A stretch of 64,000 nucleotides of DNA from Escherichia phage vB_EcoM-Ro157lw: the sequence record MH051335.1; one strand, written 5' to 3'. The position numbers and the translations under genes were made by a program. The notes under the pieces are model-generated. The model did not search any database. It was given only the letters and a program-made list of their open reading frames with translations, and was not told where the DNA came from. Below, piece by piece: positions 26,971 to 53,967 of the stretch. The first letter of the stretch is position 1. The number at the start of each line of letters is the position of its first letter.

Positions 26971-29151
26971 GTGTCTGACTCATTAGAAAAATTTGTTCTT
27001 CAATATACGGTGGACTTGAAAGAGTCCATCAATCGTCTTGAGCAATTGCAAGATAAGGTTGATCAGACAAATAAAAAGGCAAAGGCCGCTGGTAAGGACT
27101 TCACCGGAGCATTCAAAGATGTGTTTGGTGAGCTGAAGCCTCTCACAGCTGAACTGGGGTCCATTGACGGAATCCTTGCGCGGCTTACTTACCGCTTTGC
27201 CGCGCTCGTTCCTGTTGTCGCAGGATTGGCCGTCGTCGTCAAATCCATTGTTGATGTTCGAAAAGAATATGAAGCGCAAAGGAAGCTGGGATTTGAAGCA
27301 GGTCTTTCACCAATTGGCGTGGAGCAATTACAGCGACAATTGAATGAAAGTTCAGGTGGCATTCTTGGTGCGCAGGGGTCAAGGGATTTGATCAGCAAAG
27401 CTTCTAATCTCGCATTCAACGCATACACCAACCCAGATGTGATGAACAAGGACAACTTGTTACTGAACAAGATGGGCACTAGTCCTTTCAACAGTAACGG
27501 CGGCATCAAAGACACAAACCAGCTTCTTGATGAAATTGGCACAAAGCTGAGAAGTGTGAATGAGCAAACCGCTCGTGCTATTGGTGCTCTGGCAGGTTTT
27601 ACCGCCGATGAAGTCCGTGCGCTTCGTGAGCGAAATCAATCAGTCAAAGAAAGCACCCGTATAAGCGACGAAGAAACCGCGAAGCTGCAAAGACAGCAGG
27701 CCGCTCTTGAAACGATACGAAACAGCATGGGCCAAATTCAAGAAGACTGGCGACGCATTGAACTGGTAATCGGTGAGAACGTGATGCCTGCATTCTCGAC
27801 GCTTGTCAGCAAAACCGCCGATACAGTCGAAGGATTCCAGATGATGTTCCAAAGAATGTCTGATGGATGGTCCGAATTTGTCGACAATTTCATTGCTGAC
27901 TTGAAGCACCCGTTTGATAAACAGGCGGCTGTCAACGAGCGCCACGAGCGTGCCGTTGACAGATGGATCACTCAGATGGCTGACGGCGATGTGAAACGCC
28001 AGAGGAATCAGGAGCAAAACGCGGCTGAACAACGTTCTGCGCAAGCACTTTTCACTCGCGATATAAACCTGTTTTCAAGCGCCGTTTCAACCTTTGCTGG
28101 TGTTATTGATGAGCGACAAGCGTGGGCTGCATGGGCTGGTGAGATAGGACGAAGCGCAGGCCAATCCGCAATGCCTGGCACGCCAGCACTAAGCACTGGT
28201 GCGACCGTAGGCAACAACTTGGGGTCAGGAAATCCGACTGCATATGACTCAATCTATGAGGAAGCCTCCAAGCGTTATGGAATCCCTGTTGCGATGATGA
28301 AGGCCGTCACAGAAGTCGAATCTGGATTCAACCCTAATGCCGTAAGCGGAGCAGGCGCGACCGGACTGATGCAAATAATGCCTTCCAACTTCAAGGGACT
28401 TGGTATCACAGACGGTAATGACCCAAGACAAAACATTATGGGCGGCGCTCAACTTCTCAAGGAATATTTAACTGCTGCCAATGGCGATTGGAATCTTGCA
28501 CTGACTATGTATCACGGCGGATATGACCGCAGCGGATGGGGAAAGAACACCCGTGCATACCCTGGCAAGGTGATGGCCGCTCTCGAACGACAGGCGAATG
28601 GAGAATACGCCACGGGAGCGCCGCAAGGTGCACCAGTTACTCCAGTGCTTAGCGGTAGCGGAGTAGAAGCGCCAAAAGGCAGCTACGCTCCAGTACAGGG
28701 CCAATCCCGCCAAACGGTGCAATACAGACAGTTGCAAGAAGCAATTGCAGGATACCTAAACGTGCCAGTTGAGCAGCTGATGCAAGGACAAGTCAACAAA
28801 GGTGATATTGACTTTGCTCAAACTTACCTTAAACTTGGAACGCAAAGGGATTATATTAAAAACATGCAGCTGGCTTCAACTCCAGGTGTAAGGCCGAACA
28901 TTCAGGCCGAAGCCATGAAGAATGCTCGTCTCGCGGCATTCCAGCTTGAAGCATTCCAGAAATACGGCGGCGACCTTTCCGCGAATAGTCGACCTGGTGG
29001 GCGTGATATTACTATGGGTCAGAAAAACGTTGTCATCAACGTCAACGGCGCTCAAGACCCAAGAAGCACGGCGATTGAGACTAAGCGTGTGCTTGAACAA
29101 GATGATATCAACGACATAAACAACCTTACTGCTACACCTTTGAAGTGGTGA
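26971..29151 (+). CDS. tail tape measure protein with C-terminal lytic transglycosylase domain
   Basis: Transglycosylase motifs AMMKAVTEVESGFNPNAVSGAGATGLMQIMPS; coiled-coil N-terminal half; GTG start with AAGGGG SD. Confidence 0.65.
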   Translation: MSDSLEKFVLQYTVDLKESINRLEQLQDKVDQTNKKAKAAGKDFTGAFKDVFGELKPLTAELGSIDGILARLTYRFAALVPVVAGLAVVVKSIVDVRKEYEAQRKLGFEAGLSPIGVEQLQRQLNESSGGILGAQGSRDLISKASNLAFNAYTNPDVMNKDNLLLNKMGTSPFNSNGGIKDTNQLLDEIGTKLRSVNEQTARAIGALAGFTADEVRALRERNQSVKESTRISDEETAKLQRQQAALETIRNSMGQIQEDWRRIELVIGENVMPAFSTLVSKTADTVEGFQMMFQRMSDGWSEFVDNFIADLKHPFDKQAAVNERHERAVDRWITQMADGDVKRQRNQEQNAAEQRSAQALFTRDINLFSSAVSTFAGVIDERQAWAAWAGEIGRSAGQSAMPGTPALSTGATVGNNLGSGNPTAYDSIYEEASKRYGIPVAMMKAVTEVESGFNPNAVSGAGATGLMQIMPSNFKGLGITDGNDPRQNIMGGAQLLKEYLTAANGDWNLALTMYHGGYDRSGWGKNTRAYPGKVMAALERQANGEYATGAPQGAPVTPVLSGSGVEAPKGSYAPVQGQSRQTVQYRQLQEAIAGYLNVPVEQLMQGQVNKGDIDFAQTYLKLGTQRDYIKNMQLASTPGVRPNIQAEAMKNARLAAFQLEAFQKYGGDLSANSRPGGRDITMGQKNVVINVNGAQDPRSTAIETKRVLEQDDINDINNLTATPLKW

Positions 29152-37157: not shown

Positions 37158-37802
37158 ATGATTAACGCAAACGTAATATCTAAAGGGACCGGATGCAGCA
37201 TGGATGTTGCAGAGAAATGGGTGGACCCTTTCAAGCAGGCTTGTGAGCACTACGGAATCAAAAGCAAGAGTGCCATCGCGGCATTCCTTGCAAACGTAGG
37301 AGTAGAGACAGGCAGCTTGAAAACATTTGTGGAAAATCTCAACTACTCTGCACAGGGTCTTGCCAACACGTGGCCTAGTCGTTACAGCGTCAACGGTCGC
37401 TCTGGAAGTTCCCCGAACTCATTGGCCCTGTCGATTGCCCGTAAACCAATGGAAATCGCCAATAATACATATGCAAACCGCATGGGAAATGGTTCGGTAG
37501 CATCTGGCGACGGCTGGAAGTACCGTGGCCGTGGTGCCATTCAGCTGACTGGCAAGGCGAACTATGCGGAATATACGCGCCAATCAGGCTATGATGCGTT
37601 GAACAATCCTGATATTCTGACTGAACCAAAATACATTGCCGACAGCGCGGCATGGTTCTTTAAGAATAGCGGTTGTATCCCTCTTGCGGATGCAGGAAAT
37701 TTTGATTCAACCGTTAAGCGAATTAACGGGGCCGCGCCGAACGCAGCAAACCACGGTGAGTTGCGAAGAAAGCGTTACAAAGATGCACTAGCAGTTATGT
37801 AA
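37158..37802 (+). CDS. endolysin, glycoside hydrolase family 19 (chitinase-like lysozyme)
   Basis: Motif YRGRGAIQLTGKANY typical of GH19 catalytic core. Confidence 0.7.
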   Translation: MINANVISKGTGCSMDVAEKWVDPFKQACEHYGIKSKSAIAAFLANVGVETGSLKTFVENLNYSAQGLANTWPSRYSVNGRSGSSPNSLALSIARKPMEIANNTYANRMGNGSVASGDGWKYRGRGAIQLTGKANYAEYTRQSGYDALNNPDILTEPKYIADSAAWFFKNSGCIPLADAGNFDSTVKRINGAAPNAANHGELRRKRYKDALAVM

Positions 37803-37827: not shown

Positions 37828-38040
37828 TTATTTTACGGCTTCAACTTGGACGGGCGGAGCGGAACTTGTATCAATGTCTGGCAAGTCGAAGTAATACCCC
37901 GCCATACCAATCACACCCACAATCGCGGCCCGTGCCACCTTGCTGCTAATTGACTCCCCAATAAGCTTTACCAACAGGGATAAGATTTGAGACGTCAAAG
38001 CCTTTTTCAGCCTTTTGTTTTCTTCCAAATCTTTCTGCAT
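37828..38040 (-). CDS. small protein with C-terminal TM segment (ATG at 38040; track extends to TTG 38058)
   Basis: ORF track; GGGTGG SD. Confidence 0.45.
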   Translation of the reverse strand: MQKDLEENKRLKKALTSQILSLLVKLIGESISSKVARAAIVGVIGMAGYYFDLPDIDTSSAPPVQVEAVK

Positions 38041-38054
38041 AACTACCACCCATG

Positions 38055-38597
38055 TCAACGCACTTCCTGTGTCTTAACATTACCTGAAGCATCTCTCAAG
38101 GGCAGTGGATAGTAGGCCATTTGGTAGTCTGATACGCCTTCAATGTGATAAAACACGATTACGTCTTTGCTGTTGATGAGCATGTTAACGACATCTGATT
38201 TATCTTCTGGAGTGAGTATTAGTGCGCCGCCTGTCCTGCTGTCTACTGCAACAGGGTATGTCTTGTCGACAAGGCCGCTGTCCAATGTATTATACCTGAC
38301 AACGATTTCAGGGGCATCAACTTTTGCCATTGACATTCCGAACACAAACGACACTACTTGTCGACCGCGATCATTCATTACGCACATCTTTTCTTTGTCA
38401 AATCTTTCTTTTATTACGTCGTATTTGTTCCAGCAGAACTCAAAGGATTGCCCATTGTTGAAATATCTTGTCAAAACTTTTGCACTTCCATTCGGCGGCG
38501 TAAACATATTTTCAGCCGATGCAGTCTTGGTGAAGAATATAACTGTCAGCATAGCCATGATGATGATCAAAACAATCTTTAATTTGTTCGCTTTCAT
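38055..38597 (-). CDS. secreted/periplasmic protein (N-terminal signal peptide)
   Basis: Signal-like N-terminus MKANKLKIVLIIIMAMLTVIFFTKTASA; AAGGTGA SD. Confidence 0.55.
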   Translation of the reverse strand: MKANKLKIVLIIIMAMLTVIFFTKTASAENMFTPPNGSAKVLTRYFNNGQSFEFCWNKYDVIKERFDKEKMCVMNDRGRQVVSFVFGMSMAKVDAPEIVVRYNTLDSGLVDKTYPVAVDSRTGGALILTPEDKSDVVNMLINSKDVIVFYHIEGVSDYQMAYYPLPLRDASGNVKTQEVR

Positions 38598-38678
38598 TAT
38601 AATTCACCTTTTGATTATGAATATTAATAGTATAGGCTCAAGGTTTTGAAAGTAAATACGCCGAAAGTAAATAAAAGA

Positions 38679-38700
38679 AAAGCCGGAAATTTCCGGCTTT
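38679..38700. terminator. 22-bp perfect palindrome AAAGCCGGAAATTTCCGGCTTT, bidirectional terminator-like
   Basis: Direct reading downstream of ligase gene. Confidence 0.55.
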
Positions 38701-39747: not shown

Positions 39748-40340
39748 CACTCAAACTCCTTATTCATCACTTGTTCCATTGCATAGGCGTAAGCCTGATC
39801 AGTCGATTTGATAAACGTTCCGTTGTACATCACTCCTTTACGGTCCTTGATGTCTTCATAGGCGGCTTGAGCGCAATCAGACAGTCGAAGTCCATAATCA
39901 TGCGCTACGCCGGAAAGATAATCGACTGCGGCCATGATGGTGACATCAATATCCATACTCTGATTTTTAGCAATGGCGTCACCAAGCCGTCCGAGAGTCT
40001 TTGCCAAGCGAAGGATAAACGAGTGAGGGTGGGCACCTTTGTCAGCGCAACCGCCGCCGTTGATGTCTTCGATTTTTGCACCATTTTGCGCGGCAAGAAT
40101 AGTTAACACAACAAGGCAATCGCCGATGTCATCCTTGATTGCGGCTTGTAAATCACAGATGGCCTGCTCTGTATATCCGATTTCAGGGTCAAAGAACACA
40201 AGGTCATGTAATTGATCAATGTGGTCGGTCAACTCCCCAAACTCGCTAATAAGCTTCGGGTATTGGTCCTTAAGGTCGCAGCCTTGGATGATGTTACGGT
40301 CAGAAGCCCACTGGCGAATGTTTGCATAAATCTGGTTCAT
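39747..40340 (-). CDS. MazG-like nucleotide pyrophosphohydrolase (tentative)
   Basis: Acidic helical motifs ISEFGELTD and DDIGDCLVVLTILA; AAAGGA SD. Confidence 0.4.
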   Translation of the reverse strand: MNQIYANIRQWASDRNIIQGCDLKDQYPKLISEFGELTDHIDQLHDLVFFDPEIGYTEQAICDLQAAIKDDIGDCLVVLTILAAQNGAKIEDINGGGCADKGAHPHSFILRLAKTLGRLGDAIAKNQSMDIDVTIMAAVDYLSGVAHDYGLRLSDCAQAAYEDIKDRKGVMYNGTFIKSTDQAYAYAMEQVMNKEFE

Positions 40341-40855
40341 TTATTTTCCTTTGATGCATTGAATTGATCGATTTTAATTTTAGCCTGATTATAAGTATCA
40401 ATCAAGCTATTAACCTTCTCTTTTAATCGGTTTGTTTCTGCGGCGAACTGAACAAGAAAACTGACATCTTCTTCTGATAGTCCACAGTTTCCTTCTGGGA
40501 TAGAGAGGCGTCCAGTGGTCGCAGAGTCGGGCATACTCCTGAGTAATTCACGGGAGCAGCTGAGTTGCTCGCGCAGCTTGATATTCCCAGACTTGTAACG
40601 AGCAATAGTGTCATCAGCAACCAGTTGCGCTTCCTGGCGACCCTTCTCATATGCCGATGCCGATTCAACCTGTAAAGATGCAATTTGCTCTTCGAGTGCA
40701 TTTATCTTGTCCTTACGCTCATTGAGCGATGTCAGATATTGATTATCCTTGGCCAGTGATGCGTTGGTTTGCTGAAGGTCTTCAACGTATGATCCAGCGG
40801 CGAACGCGCCAACAAGGGCCAGAATCTTCAGAAGCGGCACAATTCTTTCTATCAT
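40337..40855 (-). CDS. i-spanin (Rz-like)
   Basis: N-terminal TM then long coiled coil; contains an embedded lipoprotein ORF in another frame. Confidence 0.5.
   Translation of the reverse strand: MIERIVPLLKILALVGAFAAGSYVEDLQQTNASLAKDNQYLTSLNERKDKINALEEQIASLQVESASAYEKGRQEAQLVADDTIARYKSGNIKLREQLSCSRELLRSMPDSATTGRLSIPEGNCGLSEEDVSFLVQFAAETNRLKEKVNSLIDTYNQAKIKIDQFNASKENK
40423..40650 (-). CDS. o-spanin (Rz1-like lipoprotein) embedded in the i-spanin gene
   Basis: Alternate-frame ORF: MRRVARKRNWLLMTLLLVTSLGISS then Cys (lipobox-like ISSC); mature part has Pro and a second Cys. Confidence 0.45.
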   Translation of the reverse strand: MRRVARKRNWLLMTLLLVTSLGISSCASNSAAPVNYSGVCPTLRPLDASLSQKETVDYQKKMSVFLFSSPQKQTD

Positions 40856-51481: not shown

Positions 51482-51928
51482 TTAACGGTAGTTCACTAGT
51501 TGCTGATCACCAGAGAAGGTGCAATGATAAACAAATTGTGCATTATAAAGCAACTGAAAACTTTTCTTTGGTTCACTATTAGCACTCATCGATGTGAATA
51601 CTTCTGCACCGGAACGGTTTTCACCGATTAAGTTGACAAAGCCGCCAGTTGTGCGAGGTTGAACGAAAGTGAAACGTTGCATCCACGGAGTCCGGTTGAC
51701 ACCTTTTCCGGTGAATCCTTGAATCTGAATATTCAGACCTTCTTGCTCATTCACACCGATGTAAGTGGTAATCTTCGCACCAGTCGTTGCTGCGGTCTTA
51801 CCGTCCATCGCTTCGCAATCATAAACAGCGATTGAATCGGAAGTACGGATGGCAGCTTCAGTCGCTTCCATATACATGGTGCCGAGAATAGCAGTTGCGG
51901 CAAGCGCGATTCCAGTGATTCGTTTCAT
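51482..51928 (-). CDS. secreted protein (signal peptide, two Cys)
   Basis: N-terminus MKRITGIALAATAILG. Confidence 0.5.
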   Translation of the reverse strand: MKRITGIALAATAILGTMYMEATEAAIRTSDSIAVYDCEAMDGKTAATTGAKITTYIGVNEQEGLNIQIQGFTGKGVNRTPWMQRFTFVQPRTTGGFVNLIGENRSGAEVFTSMSANSEPKKSFQLLYNAQFVYHCTFSGDQQLVNYR

Positions 51929-51993
51929 TTTCGTTTCCTCTATGAGTTCTGCTTCAATGATTAAAGTATACGCCCATTGAAGCAGAAAGCAAA

Positions 51994-52989
51994 TTATTTA
52001 TTAGCAATATAAGCAAATTTTTGATAGTTATTTGCTTTGATGAGTTTTTCAACTTCAACAAGATCATGAGCGACGTCATCAAGCAAAATGTTTCGCCAGG
52101 TAGCAAATCGACCGACACTAAACACGTTCAAATCCATAGTCAGCTGCAGGAGTAAGGCGTGTCGCAAGTCTTTCGGAATGTCGACAATCTTTCCATATTT
52201 CTGGTCGACCTTTTCAACTTCTTCAAGAGCGATGTCACTCCATGAGAGGCCAAATGCCGTCAGCACCTCGTCGACTTCTGCGCGCAGCTTGATGTCACGG
52301 TAACGAGTGATGCCGCCAGCGGCTTCAACTGCAGCTTCACTTACGCTGACCAAAGGAATTGTTTCAATGATAAGCGTGTCACCAGTAATTGATGCGCGGT
52401 AAGTTCTGACGGAGTAGTCAGGGAAGTAAATTGTCTGATACAAATCACACTTACGTTTAATCTTAAAGCGGTAAACACGAATGTTTGCTTTATCAAATGA
52501 GAAATCAAGCTTTTGATCAATCCCAGCCAGCTTCATCATGACTGGCAGCGGCGACGTGTTGATGATTGGCGTCTCGCTATAGCCGCAAAGAGTATCAACC
52601 GGAGTATTAAAGAATATGCGGTCACCCAGTTTGTCGACAAGCTGATCATAAAAGTCATCAGGCGCAATATAACGCGTTGCAGTCTTAAGATTCATGATTG
52701 AACGGCTGCCAAACTGATTGGTGACCTTCATGGAATACATATTGGCAAGGTTGATTGGGCAATGGTCGTGGTAGTAGTTGCCGCGAAAATACACAGCCTT
52801 GTCAACTGTCACTGCCTTAAAAGGGATTCCGGTAATACGGCTTACTTCTTCGCCACGGAAGCGTAGCAGCGCCTTGTGCTGTTGCGCTCGCTCCCCTGCT
52901 TCGTACACAACAGAGTTCGGGAAGTGACACGCTGTGATAAGTCCTGCCAATCCGCCGCCGATAATCATTACAGGTTGTTTCATGTTCAT
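51994..52989 (-). CDS. FAD/NAD(P)-binding oxidoreductase (possibly UDP-galactopyranose-mutase-like)
   Basis: N-terminal GxGxxG MIIGGGLAGL; C-terminal GRFATW motif. Confidence 0.5.
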   Translation of the reverse strand: MNMKQPVMIIGGGLAGLITACHFPNSVVYEAGERAQQHKALLRFRGEEVSRITGIPFKAVTVDKAVYFRGNYYHDHCPINLANMYSMKVTNQFGSRSIMNLKTATRYIAPDDFYDQLVDKLGDRIFFNTPVDTLCGYSETPIINTSPLPVMMKLAGIDQKLDFSFDKANIRVYRFKIKRKCDLYQTIYFPDYSVRTYRASITGDTLIIETIPLVSVSEAAVEAAGGITRYRDIKLRAEVDEVLTAFGLSWSDIALEEVEKVDQKYGKIVDIPKDLRHALLLQLTMDLNVFSVGRFATWRNILLDDVAHDLVEVEKLIKANNYQKFAYIANK

Positions 52990-53121
52990 TTGTCCTTTGT
53001 GGGTGATATGAGAAGTATAATAGCTAAATTATTTTACAGCAACAAGTCATTTTATTTAGTACAGATGAAAAAAGACCCACAACAAGTGTGGGTCAATTAC
53101 CGCTGCATAACCGTCCTAAGG

Positions 53122-53967
53122 TTATTCCGCTTGATCACCGTCTTCGGCATCTTCGTTGGATTCAACATCGACAAACTCGATGTGGCCCATCTCTTCCAGC
53201 TTGCTCAGGTAGGAGCGAACGGAAGCGCCAAACAGTTGATCTTTAACTTTTTCGCCCAGCTCATCGATAGACTGCGCCACGCCAACTTCGCCTTCTTTGA
53301 TCGCCGCCAGAACGCGTCCACGGGTGGAATGCTCTTGCGGCTGGCTCAGGCCATTGCCAGTGTAGATGAAGTGGGTTGCTTTTGCGCGACGCTGACCGTT
53401 TGCCTTTTTAGCAGCCTTACGTTCTGCGATGGCTTTGCGACGTTCTTCAGCTTCTTTCTTACGCTGTTCTTTCTGCTTTTCTGCAGCTTCTTTAGCCGCA
53501 ATCTTAGCAGCTTCACGCTCTGCCTTGCGTTTCGCTTTAGCTTCTTCTTTGGCCTTCTCTTTTTCGGCCTTCGCTGCAGCACGGGCTTGATCACGCTCTG
53601 CTTTCTTAGCAGCAGCTTGTTCAGCTTTCAGGCGCTTGGCTTCTTCTTTGGCCTTTGCCTTTTCGATTTCTTTTGCTGCTTTAGCGGCTTCACGCTCTGC
53701 TTTCTTAGCAGCTGCTTTTTCTGCACGCTCTTTGGCTTTCTTCGCTGCTTCTTCAGCACGTTTCTGTGCTTTCTCATCAGCGGCCTGCTTGCGTTTCAGT
53801 GCAGCTTCTTCACGCTTGGCTTGTTTTTCCTGCTCACGCTTCTGGCGTTTTTCTTCGGCTTCTTTCTTTTTAGCCAGGCGTTTTTCTTCAGCCACGCGAC
53901 GACGTTCTGCTGCAGCTGCTTGTTTTTCTTCTTTAGATAATACTTTGATTGCTTCGGCCATATTCAC
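53122..53967 (-). CDS. Lys/Glu/Ala-rich charged-helix protein with C-terminal globular domain
   Basis: ~190 aa of KAE-rich low-complexity sequence; AAGGA SD; same strand as all neighbours. Confidence 0.6.
   Translation of the reverse strand: MNMAEAIKVLSKEEKQAAAAERRRVAEEKRLAKKKEAEEKRQKREQEKQAKREEAALKRKQAADEKAQKRAEEAAKKAKERAEKAAAKKAEREAAKAAKEIEKAKAKEEAKRLKAEQAAAKKAERDQARAAAKAEKEKAKEEAKAKRKAEREAAKIAAKEAAEKQKEQRKKEAEERRKAIAERKAAKKANGQRRAKATHFIYTGNGLSQPQEHSTRGRVLAAIKEGEVGVAQSIDELGEKVKDQLFGASVRSYLSKLEEMGHIEFVDVESNEDAEDGDQAE

What the first reader, a model, noticed from the sequence alone, without database searches (positions are those of the whole stretch)
51482..51928. Secreted proteins encoded within the replication and metabolism module
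Two proteins with clear signal peptides (51482..51928 and 38055..38597) are encoded among intracellular enzymes. Phage-encoded periplasmic proteins often mediate superinfection exclusion or receptor masking.
Basis: inference. Interest (0 to 1): 0.3.

Follow-up and report, generated by a model that had tools for sequence, protein, structure and literature searches.

The report
Two exported phage proteins, functions unknown
An E. coli Wifcevirus phage encodes two small proteins that carry export signals and are very likely sent to the periplasm: one is predicted to be a lipocalin-like barrel, the other is transcribed with a lysis-helper gene, and nothing yet shows that either blocks other phages.

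Summary
The window is a Wifcevirus, an E. coli myovirus related to Pseudomonas phage PB1. Both ORFs are real genes, present in all 28 sequenced relatives and under purifying selection (dN/dS 0.08 and 0.11).

Both have a typical Sec signal peptide, with predicted cleavage at TEA|AIR (after residue 25) and ASA|ENM (after residue 28). The same features persist in homologs only 17-37% identical. Every family member keeps exactly two cysteines in the mature part. These calls rest on a heuristic and on comparative evidence, because SignalP was not available.

ORF A (51482..51928) gives a confident model (pLDDT 84) of an 8-stranded lipocalin-like barrel. It always sits between an FAD-type enzyme and ThyX, and it evolves much faster than those neighbours.

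ORF B (38055..38597) is only nominally "among enzymes". It forms its own promoter-to-terminator unit with a 70-aa membrane protein. That protein is the homolog of PA1-LRP, which was reported to help an endolysin kill cells. The unit abuts the endolysin gene. PB1 keeps the LRP homolog but lacks ORF B.

Neither protein matches any characterised family, and neither was found in virion mass spectrometry. Superinfection exclusion is plausible for ORF A but untested. ORF B looks more like a lysis accessory. This is an ordinary finding of modest interest.

The parts
51482..51928 (-). ORF A: 148-aa preprotein (ortholog of vBEco4M7_81; same family as KYLE_76)
   Evidence: 28/28 Wifcevirus records, 93-99% aa identity; dN/dS 0.08.
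51854..51928 (-). ORF A signal peptide, residues 1-25, predicted cleavage TEA|AIR
   Evidence: It aligns with VGA|A in P0007 and VGA|G in P0012. Heuristic; SignalP not available.
51485..51853 (-). ORF A mature domain, 123 aa: predicted 8-stranded up-and-down beta-barrel with invariant Cys38 and Cys136 (preprotein numbering)
   Evidence: AF2 model pLDDT 83.9, pTM 0.76. Foldseek top hits are lipocalins, Blc and designed barrels at TM 0.43-0.47. The BFVD model of the Mansfield ortholog agrees, TM 0.88. Cys invariance.
51965..51992 (-). Promoter-like element upstream of ORF A: TTGCTT, 16 nt, TATACT
   Evidence: Read. Both hexamers are conserved in a relative whose ORF A is only 31% identical, while the spacer varies. 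It falls below the scan tool's threshold, so it is an inference.
51936..51940 (-). Shine-Dalgarno GAGGA of ORF A
38055..38597 (-). ORF B: 180-aa preprotein (ortholog of vBEco4M7_66 and CPT_Mansfield_054; same family as KYLE_59 and Hera gp72)
   Evidence: 28 Wifcevirus plus 3 Pantoea phage records; dN/dS 0.11; hhalign 94.8%, E 5e-8 to Hera gp72.
38514..38597 (-). ORF B signal peptide, residues 1-28, predicted cleavage ASA|ENM
   Evidence: Homologs end in ARA|A, AKA|D, AVA|Q and ADA|S at the equivalent place.
38058..38513 (-). ORF B mature domain, 152 aa, beta-rich, two invariant Cys; fold unresolved
   Evidence: AF2 failed (pLDDT 38.7). Invariant columns include both Cys. No PDB, Pfam or PHROG match.
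38629..38656 (-). Sigma-70-like promoter of the ORF B unit: TTTACT, 16 nt, TATACT
   Evidence: The hexamers and the SD are conserved in the distant relative while the spacer diverges.
38679..38700 (-). Intrinsic terminator that closes the spanin-MazG-ligase unit just upstream of ORF B
   Evidence: Annotated as a terminator in phage Mansfield. Conserved.
37828..38040 (-). 70-aa membrane protein co-transcribed with ORF B (14-nt gap): homolog of PA1-LRP, KYLE_58, PB1 ORF47 and Hera gp73; phrog_5165
   Evidence: PA1-LRP experiments: PMC11538084.
37806..37825 (.). Bidirectional terminator shared by the ORF B-LRP unit and the convergent endolysin gene
   Evidence: Annotated on both strands in Mansfield and PB1.
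37158..37802 (+). Context: GH19 endolysin with no signal or SAR domain, so it needs a holin
   Evidence: PF00182, phrog_181.
40337..40855 (-). Context: i-spanin with embedded o-spanin (40423..40701), two genes upstream of ORF B

Best explanation
Both genes encode non-structural proteins that the host Sec system exports. Signal peptidase I removes the signal peptide, and each product is a soluble periplasmic protein with one likely disulfide. This export step is directly supported by the sequences and their homologs (my estimate about 0.85).

ORF A (inferred function): the mature 123-aa protein is a small lipocalin-like beta-barrel. The two invariant cysteines lie in the first and last strands, where they could staple the barrel shut. 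The gene sits in a variable slot between an FAD-type enzyme and ThyX, probably has its own sigma-70-like promoter, and is the fastest-evolving gene in its neighbourhood. I read it as an envelope-directed binding protein made during infection. Its most likely role is exclusion or protection: blocking entry of a second phage, for example by binding an incoming virion component such as the tail SLT transglycosylase, or by binding a host envelope component. Estimate about 0.3.

ORF B (inferred function): it forms a self-contained promoter-to-terminator unit with a 70-aa membrane protein. That protein's homolog in Pantoea phage PA1 is toxic when expressed and enhances endolysin killing. The unit abuts the endolysin gene in Wifcevirus, Kylevirus and Myosmarvirus. 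The partner protein has a basic N-terminus, a hydrophobic helix and an acidic C-terminal tail, so the tail would face the periplasm. The most likely role of ORF B is a periplasmic accessory or regulator of that lysis step, comparable in logic to T4 antiholin RI. Estimate about 0.35.
For: Export: tripartite signal peptides with -3/-1 sites, kept in homologs 17-37% identical while the N-terminal sequences drift. Exactly two Cys in every mature domain. Neither protein is among the 33 and 28 proteins detected in phage-particle mass spectrometry for vB_Eco4M-7 and ECML-117 (PMC7048862; locus tags checked).

Real genes: present in 28/28 Wifcevirus records; dN/dS 0.08 and 0.11.

ORF A fold: pLDDT 83.9, pTM 0.76, 8 strands plus 1 helix. 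Lipocalin, Blc and designed-barrel hits. The independent BFVD ortholog model agrees.

ORF A slot: every family member found lies between the p331 homolog and ThyX. The same slot holds unrelated non-secreted ORFs in PB1 and Hera.

ORF A rate: 31% identity where its neighbours are 70-85%, and undetectable by BLAST in Kylevirus where neighbours are 50-66%.

ORF B unit: terminator, conserved promoter and SD, then ORF B, a 14-nt gap, the LRP homolog and a bidirectional terminator shared with the endolysin. The same order holds in Kyle, PA1, the SRR26188688 contig and Hera.

LRP: lysis-helper phenotype reported in PMC11538084. No canonical holin is recognisable among the small membrane ORFs of the window.
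Against: No experiment or homology ties either protein to any function. All Pfam, PHROG, NCBIfam, PADLOC, PDB-sequence and fold searches were negative or generic.

ORF A fold matches are weak (TM below 0.5, E about 1e-2), so 'lipocalin-like' describes topology only.

These genomes are collinear throughout, so conserved adjacency of ORF B and the LRP homolog is weak evidence for a functional link. PB1 has the LRP homolog without ORF B, so ORF B is not needed for whatever LRP does.

The PA1-LRP evidence is itself weak: over-expression and fusion constructs, 24-h OD readings, and no direct interaction with the endolysin.

The ORF B structure prediction failed. Expression timing is inferred from promoter-like motifs only.
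Confidence: 0.45

Rival explanations
1. ORF A and ORF B are superinfection-exclusion or receptor-masking factors that act in the periplasm or at the outer membrane, and ORF B's position next to the lysis genes is incidental.
For: Both are exported, non-structural and lineage-restricted to enterobacterial PB1-like phages. Both diverge faster than neighbouring enzymes, as expected for proteins facing host or rival-phage surfaces. ORF B has its own sigma-70-like promoter, which fits early expression by host RNA polymerase. T4 imm and sp are likewise embedded among replication genes (general knowledge).
Against: No similarity to any known exclusion protein. Within the genus both proteins are 92-100% conserved, with no sign of diversifying selection. 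ORF B is tightly linked and co-transcribed with the LRP homolog in three genera.
Confidence: 0.25
2. The hydrophobic N-termini are not cleaved. They act as signal anchors, or as releasable SAR domains like that of T4 RI, so the proteins are tethered to the inner membrane with their domains in the periplasm.
For: ORF A's hydrophobic core is 17 residues long and rich in Ala, Gly and Thr, with two Glu in the c-region. Uncharged stretches reach 19-27 residues in some homologs.
Against: Every homolog has a well-placed A-x-A-type site directly after the core, at aligned positions. ORF B's ASA|E site is textbook. The composition resembles ordinary E. coli signal peptides such as OmpA's (general knowledge).
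Confidence: 0.12
3. ORF A is a ligand-binding lipocalin that sequesters or carries a small hydrophobic molecule in the periplasm (lipid, lipopolysaccharide or lipoprotein intermediate, quinone). It would remodel or stabilise the envelope during infection rather than bind a protein.
For: The best fold matches are ligand-binding lipocalins, E. coli Blc and, more weakly, LolA.
Against: TM-scores are below 0.5. There is no Pfam lipocalin match and no C-terminal helix. Small barrels of this kind also serve as protein inhibitors, for example MliC (general knowledge).
Confidence: 0.1
4. The signal-peptide-like N-termini are chance hydrophobic stretches, and the proteins are cytoplasmic.
For: My heuristic also flags cytoplasmic Rossmann N-termini such as FabG's, so it has false positives. 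No trained predictor was run.
Against: The tripartite features are conserved in 13 of the 14 family sequences compared (the exception, P0006, is truncated), despite sequence turnover. The Cys pairs are invariant. The mature domain of ORF A folds as a complete barrel without the N-terminal 25 residues.
Confidence: 0.03

Closest known systems
T4 superinfection-exclusion proteins Sp (Spackle, gp61.3) and Imm
   Same: Small products of a virulent myovirus that act in the envelope. Their genes are embedded among replication and nucleotide-metabolism genes. Sp is a periplasmic protein that blocks the tail lysozyme of incoming phage (general knowledge). The window's phage also carries a virion SLT transglycosylase (PMC7048862) that could be an equivalent target.
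   Different: No sequence or fold similarity. Sp is helical and Imm is a membrane protein, whereas ORF A is predicted to be a beta-barrel. No exclusion phenotype is known for any Wifcevirus gene.
T4 antiholin RI
   Same: A small phage protein exported to the periplasm that binds the periplasmic part of the holin to set lysis timing (general knowledge). ORF B is a periplasmic protein co-transcribed with a holin-like membrane protein next to the endolysin.
   Different: No homology. RI uses a SAR domain and is about 97 aa, whereas ORF B has a cleavable signal and a 152-aa beta-rich domain. No lysis-inhibition phenotype is reported for Wifcevirus. PB1 lacks ORF B.
PA1-LRP of Pantoea phage PA1 (PMC11538084)
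   Same: It is the direct homolog of the window's 70-aa gene at 37828..38040, and the PA1 gene immediately upstream of it is an ORF B homolog.
   Different: LRP is ORF B's operon partner, not ORF B itself. The ORF B homolog (PA1 ORF14 by position) was not tested in that paper.
Bacterial lipocalins and calycin-type periplasmic barrels (E. coli Blc; MliC/PliC lysozyme inhibitors)
   Same: Small exported 8-stranded meander barrels of the Gram-negative envelope. Blc is among the fold hits for ORF A.
   Different: TM 0.43-0.47 only. No Pfam match to lipocalin or MliC families. ORF A has no lipobox (Blc and MliC are lipoproteins). MliC/PliC were not in the top 50 fold hits.

Membership tests
Sec-dependent, signal peptidase I-cleaved signal peptide | Positively charged n-region | tested here: met
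   ORF A MKR (+2); ORF B MKANKLK (+3). Net positive in 14 of the 15 sequences tabulated (the 14 family members plus KYLE_77); the exception, P0006, is N-terminally truncated.
Sec-dependent, signal peptidase I-cleaved signal peptide | Uncharged hydrophobic h-region of about 10-20 residues | tested here: met
   ORF A 17 residues (best 10-residue Kyte-Doolittle mean 2.27); ORF B 15-16 residues (3.54).
Sec-dependent, signal peptidase I-cleaved signal peptide | c-region with small neutral residues at -3 and -1 | tested here: met
   TEA|A at residue 25 and ASA|E at residue 28. Equivalent sites are aligned in homologs. Heuristic only.
Sec-dependent, signal peptidase I-cleaved signal peptide | Prediction by a trained model, and actual cleavage and export | not testable with these tools
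   No SignalP or DeepTMHMM was available, and no experiment was possible.
Lipoprotein (signal peptidase II) signal | Lipobox [LVI][ASTVI][GAS]C at the end of the h-region | tested here: not met
   Neither ORF A nor ORF B has a Cys at the cleavage region. The o-spanin at 40423..40701 does (ISSC).
Tat signal peptide | Twin-arginine motif S/T-R-R-x-F-L-K | tested here: not met
   No RR in either n-region.
Lipocalin / calycin superfamily (for ORF A) | Eight-stranded antiparallel up-and-down barrel | tested here: met
   The AF2 model has 8 strands in meander order. Lipocalins top the Foldseek list.
Lipocalin / calycin superfamily (for ORF A) | Family sequence signature or profile match, and a C-terminal helix packed on the barrel | tested here: not met
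   No Pfam hit even at E below 5. No C-terminal helix in the model. TM-scores below 0.5.
MliC/PliC lysozyme inhibitors (for ORF A) | PF09864 profile match or a close structural match | tested here: not met
   No Pfam match and no MliC/PliC entry among the top 50 PDB fold hits.
Superinfection-exclusion proteins (T4 Sp/Imm, T5 Llp, Cor) | Homology to a known member | tested here: not met
   No hits in Pfam, PHROGs, NCBIfam, PADLOC, PDB sequences or fold libraries.
Superinfection-exclusion proteins (T4 Sp/Imm, T5 Llp, Cor) | Expression reduces infection by the same or other phages | not testable with these tools
   Needs plating and DNA-entry assays.
Antiholin / periplasmic lysis regulator (for ORF B) | Genetic linkage to the holin and endolysin | tested here: inconclusive
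   ORF B is co-transcribed with the LRP homolog and adjacent to the endolysin in three genera. However, LRP is not proven to be a holin (PMC11538084), the genomes are collinear throughout, and PB1 lacks ORF B.
Antiholin / periplasmic lysis regulator (for ORF B) | Binds the holin and changes lysis timing | not testable with these tools
   Structure jobs were exhausted, no multimer prediction was available, and no experiment was possible.
Virion structural protein | Detected in purified particles | tested here: not met
   vBEco4M7_66 and _81, and by gene order PI34_gp64 and gp79, are absent from the mass-spectrometry tables of PMC7048862 (the vBEco4M7 tags were checked). This is negative evidence only.

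The most novel reading that the evidence does not exclude
ORF B and the 70-aa LRP-type protein together form a previously undescribed two-part lysis-control module of enterobacterial PB1-like phages. LRP would be a new holin class, and ORF B a new cleavable-signal, beta-rich periplasmic regulator that binds LRP's periplasmic tail to time or gate hole formation. This would be functionally like T4 RI/T but unrelated in sequence and fold. ORF A would separately be a new lipocalin-fold exclusion factor.
Probability: 0.15. Interest if true: 0.55.

Novelty: new member of a known kind. Interest (0 to 1): 0.3.

Why it matters
Wifcevirus phages are used against E. coli O157 and are noted for very fast lysis, yet their holin is unknown and about two thirds of their genes have no assigned function. 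This work narrows the search for their lysis control and their phage-phage competition genes. It identifies two conserved periplasmic proteins, one tied to the only experimentally hinted lysis helper of this lineage. Both can be tested directly with the published in vitro genome-assembly system for vB_Eco4M-7 (PMC11074155, abstract seen). If neither shows a phenotype, they remain two more phage ORFan families.

Tried and rejected
- Pfam, PHROGs, NCBIfam and PADLOC scans of both proteins and of their family alignments gave nothing usable.
- PDB sequence-profile searches gave only chance-level hits. A C-type-lectin-like stretch around ORF B's Cys pair scored E 0.43, so I noted it as a lead and did not pursue it.
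- The 5.8-billion-protein word-index search and the full HMMER search of 1.84 billion representatives found only phage relatives. The ORF A family has 7 clusters. For ORF B, one single-sequence search found 5 clusters.
- AF2 on ORF B with 5 sequences failed (pLDDT 38.7). A Foldseek run on that model returned only the Serratia phage MTx homolog and noise.
- No profile-profile relation was found between the ORF A and ORF B families, or between ORF A and the second Kyle secreted protein KYLE_77.
- The motif TATACT-N1-2-TAAT occurs only upstream of the two genes. I derived it from those two sites, so the statistic is circular and I draw nothing from it.
- The 11-bp inverted repeat upstream of ORF A is not conserved in the distant relative, so I do not call it a regulatory hairpin.
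- Literature searches for lipocalin-type or signal-peptide exclusion proteins in virulent phages found nothing relevant.
The disulfide is inferred from strand positions.

Full report
**Identity of the window.** The region matches 28 phage records at 90-99% nucleotide identity. All are Escherichia or Shigella phages of the genus Wifcevirus, such as ECML-117, FEC19, WFH, Mansfield, vB_Eco4M-7 and Bas98-101. These are ~68-kb virulent myoviruses distantly related to Pseudomonas Pbunavirus (PB1) (PMC11990801).

**The observation.** Both ORFs exist on the minus strand at the stated coordinates, and each has a good Shine-Dalgarno sequence.
- ORF A (51482..51928, 148 aa) begins MKR-ITGIALAATAILGTMYM-EATEA|AIR.
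- ORF B (38055..38597, 180 aa) begins MKANKLK-IVLIIIMAMLTVIFF-TKTASA|ENM.
- Each has a positive n-region, an uncharged hydrophobic core and a -3/-1 site. Neither has a lipobox or a twin-arginine motif.
- No trained predictor was available, so I relied on comparative evidence.

**Comparative support for the signal peptides.**
- The ORF A family has 7 protein clusters in 5.8 billion proteins. It includes KYLE_76 of Pantoea phage Kyle at 17% identity.
- The ORF B family has 5 clusters. It also includes Pantoea phage homologs at 33-37% identity and Serratia phage Hera gp72 (hhalign probability 94.8%, E 5e-8).
- All complete members have a signal peptide of the same design but a different sequence. 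One ORF B homolog (P0006) is N-terminally truncated on a 906-bp contig.
- Every member has exactly two invariant cysteines in the mature part. This pattern is expected for exported, disulfide-bonded proteins.
- Within the genus both genes are under purifying selection, with dN/dS 0.08 and 0.11.

**ORF A: fold.**
- With an 8-sequence alignment, AlphaFold2 gave a confident model of the mature domain: pLDDT 83.9, pTM 0.76, eight strands in meander order plus one short helix.
- Foldseek against the PDB returned lipocalins, E. coli Blc and designed beta-barrels, but only at TM 0.43-0.47 and E about 1e-2.
- Against BFVD, only the Mansfield ortholog's independent model matched well, at TM 0.88.
- The fold class is therefore a small calycin-type barrel, with no membership in any characterised family.
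- The invariant cysteines are at mature positions 13 (end of strand 1) and 111 (start of strand 8). In a closed meander barrel these strands are neighbours, so a barrel-closing disulfide is likely.

**ORF A: genomic position and rate.**
- Every family member found lies directly downstream of the homolog of the 331-aa FAD-Rossmann protein (phrog_4828) and upstream of ThyX.
- The same slot holds five unrelated non-secreted small ORFs in PB1 and one in Serratia phage Hera. In Kyle it holds a second, unrelated secreted protein. The slot is therefore variable.
- ORF A is 31% identical in a relative where the neighbouring genes are 70-85% identical. It is undetectable by BLAST in Kylevirus, where neighbours are 50-66% identical.
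- A TTGCTT-16-TATACT element upstream is conserved in that relative while the spacer varies.

**ORF B: transcription unit.** The upstream spanin-MazG-ligase unit ends in a conserved terminator (38700..38679). The elements that follow, in order, are:
- a TTTACT-16-TATACT promoter-like site and an SD, both conserved in a relative with 63% protein identity;
- ORF B;
- a 14-nt gap;
- a 70-aa ORF (37828..38040, phrog_5165);
- a bidirectional terminator shared with the convergent GH19 endolysin.

**ORF B: the partner gene.**
- The 70-aa protein is homologous to KYLE_58, PB1 ORF47, Hera gp73 and PA1-LRP.
- A published study reports that PA1-LRP inhibits growth when expressed alone and increases killing by the PA1 endolysin. 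That study found no recognisable holin in the PA1 genome (PMC11538084).
- No canonical holin is recognisable among the small membrane ORFs of the window either.
- The order ORF B homolog, then LRP homolog, then convergent endolysin holds in Wifcevirus, Kylevirus, Myosmarvirus and an unclassified metagenomic relative.
- PB1 has the LRP homolog but no ORF B.
- ORF B is therefore an addition specific to the enterobacterial lineage, attached to an older lysis-associated gene.
- Its fold could not be determined: AF2 gave pLDDT 38.7, and profile searches were empty.

**Not structural.** Neither product is among the proteins detected by mass spectrometry of vB_Eco4M-7 and ECML-117 preparations (PMC7048862; the vBEco4M7 locus tags were confirmed).

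**Mechanism.**
- Shown or strongly supported: both proteins are exported by Sec, are probably cleaved and disulfide-bonded, and are non-structural.
- Inferred for ORF A: it is a periplasmic binding barrel, and an exclusion or protection role is the most likely one (about 0.3). One concrete candidate target is the virion SLT transglycosylase (26971..29151). This follows the logic of T4 Spackle, which inhibits the T4 tail lysozyme (general knowledge).
- Inferred for ORF B: it is a periplasmic accessory of the LRP-dependent lysis step (about 0.35). It could bind the acidic C-terminal tail of LRP, which should face the periplasm given LRP's basic N-terminus.
- Rival readings: exclusion for both proteins; membrane-tethered rather than cleaved forms; a small-ligand carrier role for ORF A.

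**Comparison with known systems and verdict.**
- The closest analogies are T4 Sp and Imm, T4 RI, bacterial lipocalins and MliC, and PA1-LRP as ORF B's partner.
- No membership test beyond 'Sec signal peptide' and 'eight-stranded barrel topology' was met.
- These are new, uncharacterised members of a known kind (phage-encoded periplasmic accessory proteins). Interest is modest.

Noticed in passing
window 37828..38040 (-): This 70-aa protein (phrog_5165) is conserved from Wifcevirus to Pseudomonas PB1 (ORF47) and always converges on the endolysin across a bidirectional terminator. Its PA1 homolog (PA1-LRP) was reported to aid endolysin killing. It is the best holin candidate in a lineage where no holin is annotated.
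   Followed up: partly
window 51929..51993, and the same slot in L008, L009, L010, L011: The gap between the FAD-Rossmann gene and ThyX is a variable slot. It holds ORF A in Wifcevirus, two secreted proteins in Kyle, one secreted plus two other ORFs in PA1, five small non-secreted ORFs in PB1 and one in Hera.
   Followed up: yes
L008 6600..6977 (-) (KYLE_77): Pantoea phage Kyle has a second small protein with a clear signal peptide (MKRFIIAAAAIVAASTLCPVAVHA|ESS) next to its ORF A homolog. It has no detectable homology to the ORF A family (hhalign probability 1.8%).
   Followed up: partly
window 51949..51985 (-): An 11-bp perfect inverted repeat (CTGCTTCAATG ... CATTGAAGCAG) brackets the -10-like TATACT upstream of ORF A. 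It is identical in Wifcevirus genomes, but its left arm is not conserved in the distant relative.
   Followed up: partly
window 51994..52989 (-): This 331-aa protein has an N-terminal GxGxxG dinucleotide-binding motif (phrog_4828) and no Pfam or NCBIfam hit. It is present in 361 phage records (PB1-like phages of Pseudomonas, Serratia, Xylella and Pantoea, plus some Rhizobium phages). Annotations disagree: oxidoreductase, galactopyranose, polyamine oxidase, polysaccharide deacetylase. It is always near ThyX, a PNKP-like HAD phosphatase and a FabG-like reductase.
   Followed up: no
window 53122..53967 (-), and 52876..53940 (+): A 281-aa Lys/Glu/Ala-rich protein (phrog_4765, annotated 'TolA protein') was detected in virion or lysate mass spectrometry of two Wifcevirus phages. 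The 354-aa ORF on the opposite strand, with ten apparent hydrophobic segments, looks like a low-complexity antisense artefact.
   Followed up: no
L007 6803..7255 (-): In the metagenomic Wifcevirus relative (SRR26188688 contig) the GH19 endolysin is replaced at the same position by an unrelated 150-aa gene, while the ORF B and LRP homologs are kept.
   Followed up: no
window 40423..40701 (-): An o-spanin with lipobox ISSC is embedded in the +1 frame of the i-spanin (40337..40855). With ORF A, ORF B and the LRP homolog, the window encodes five envelope-targeted products. The spanins are separated from the endolysin by MazG and DNA ligase.
   Followed up: partly
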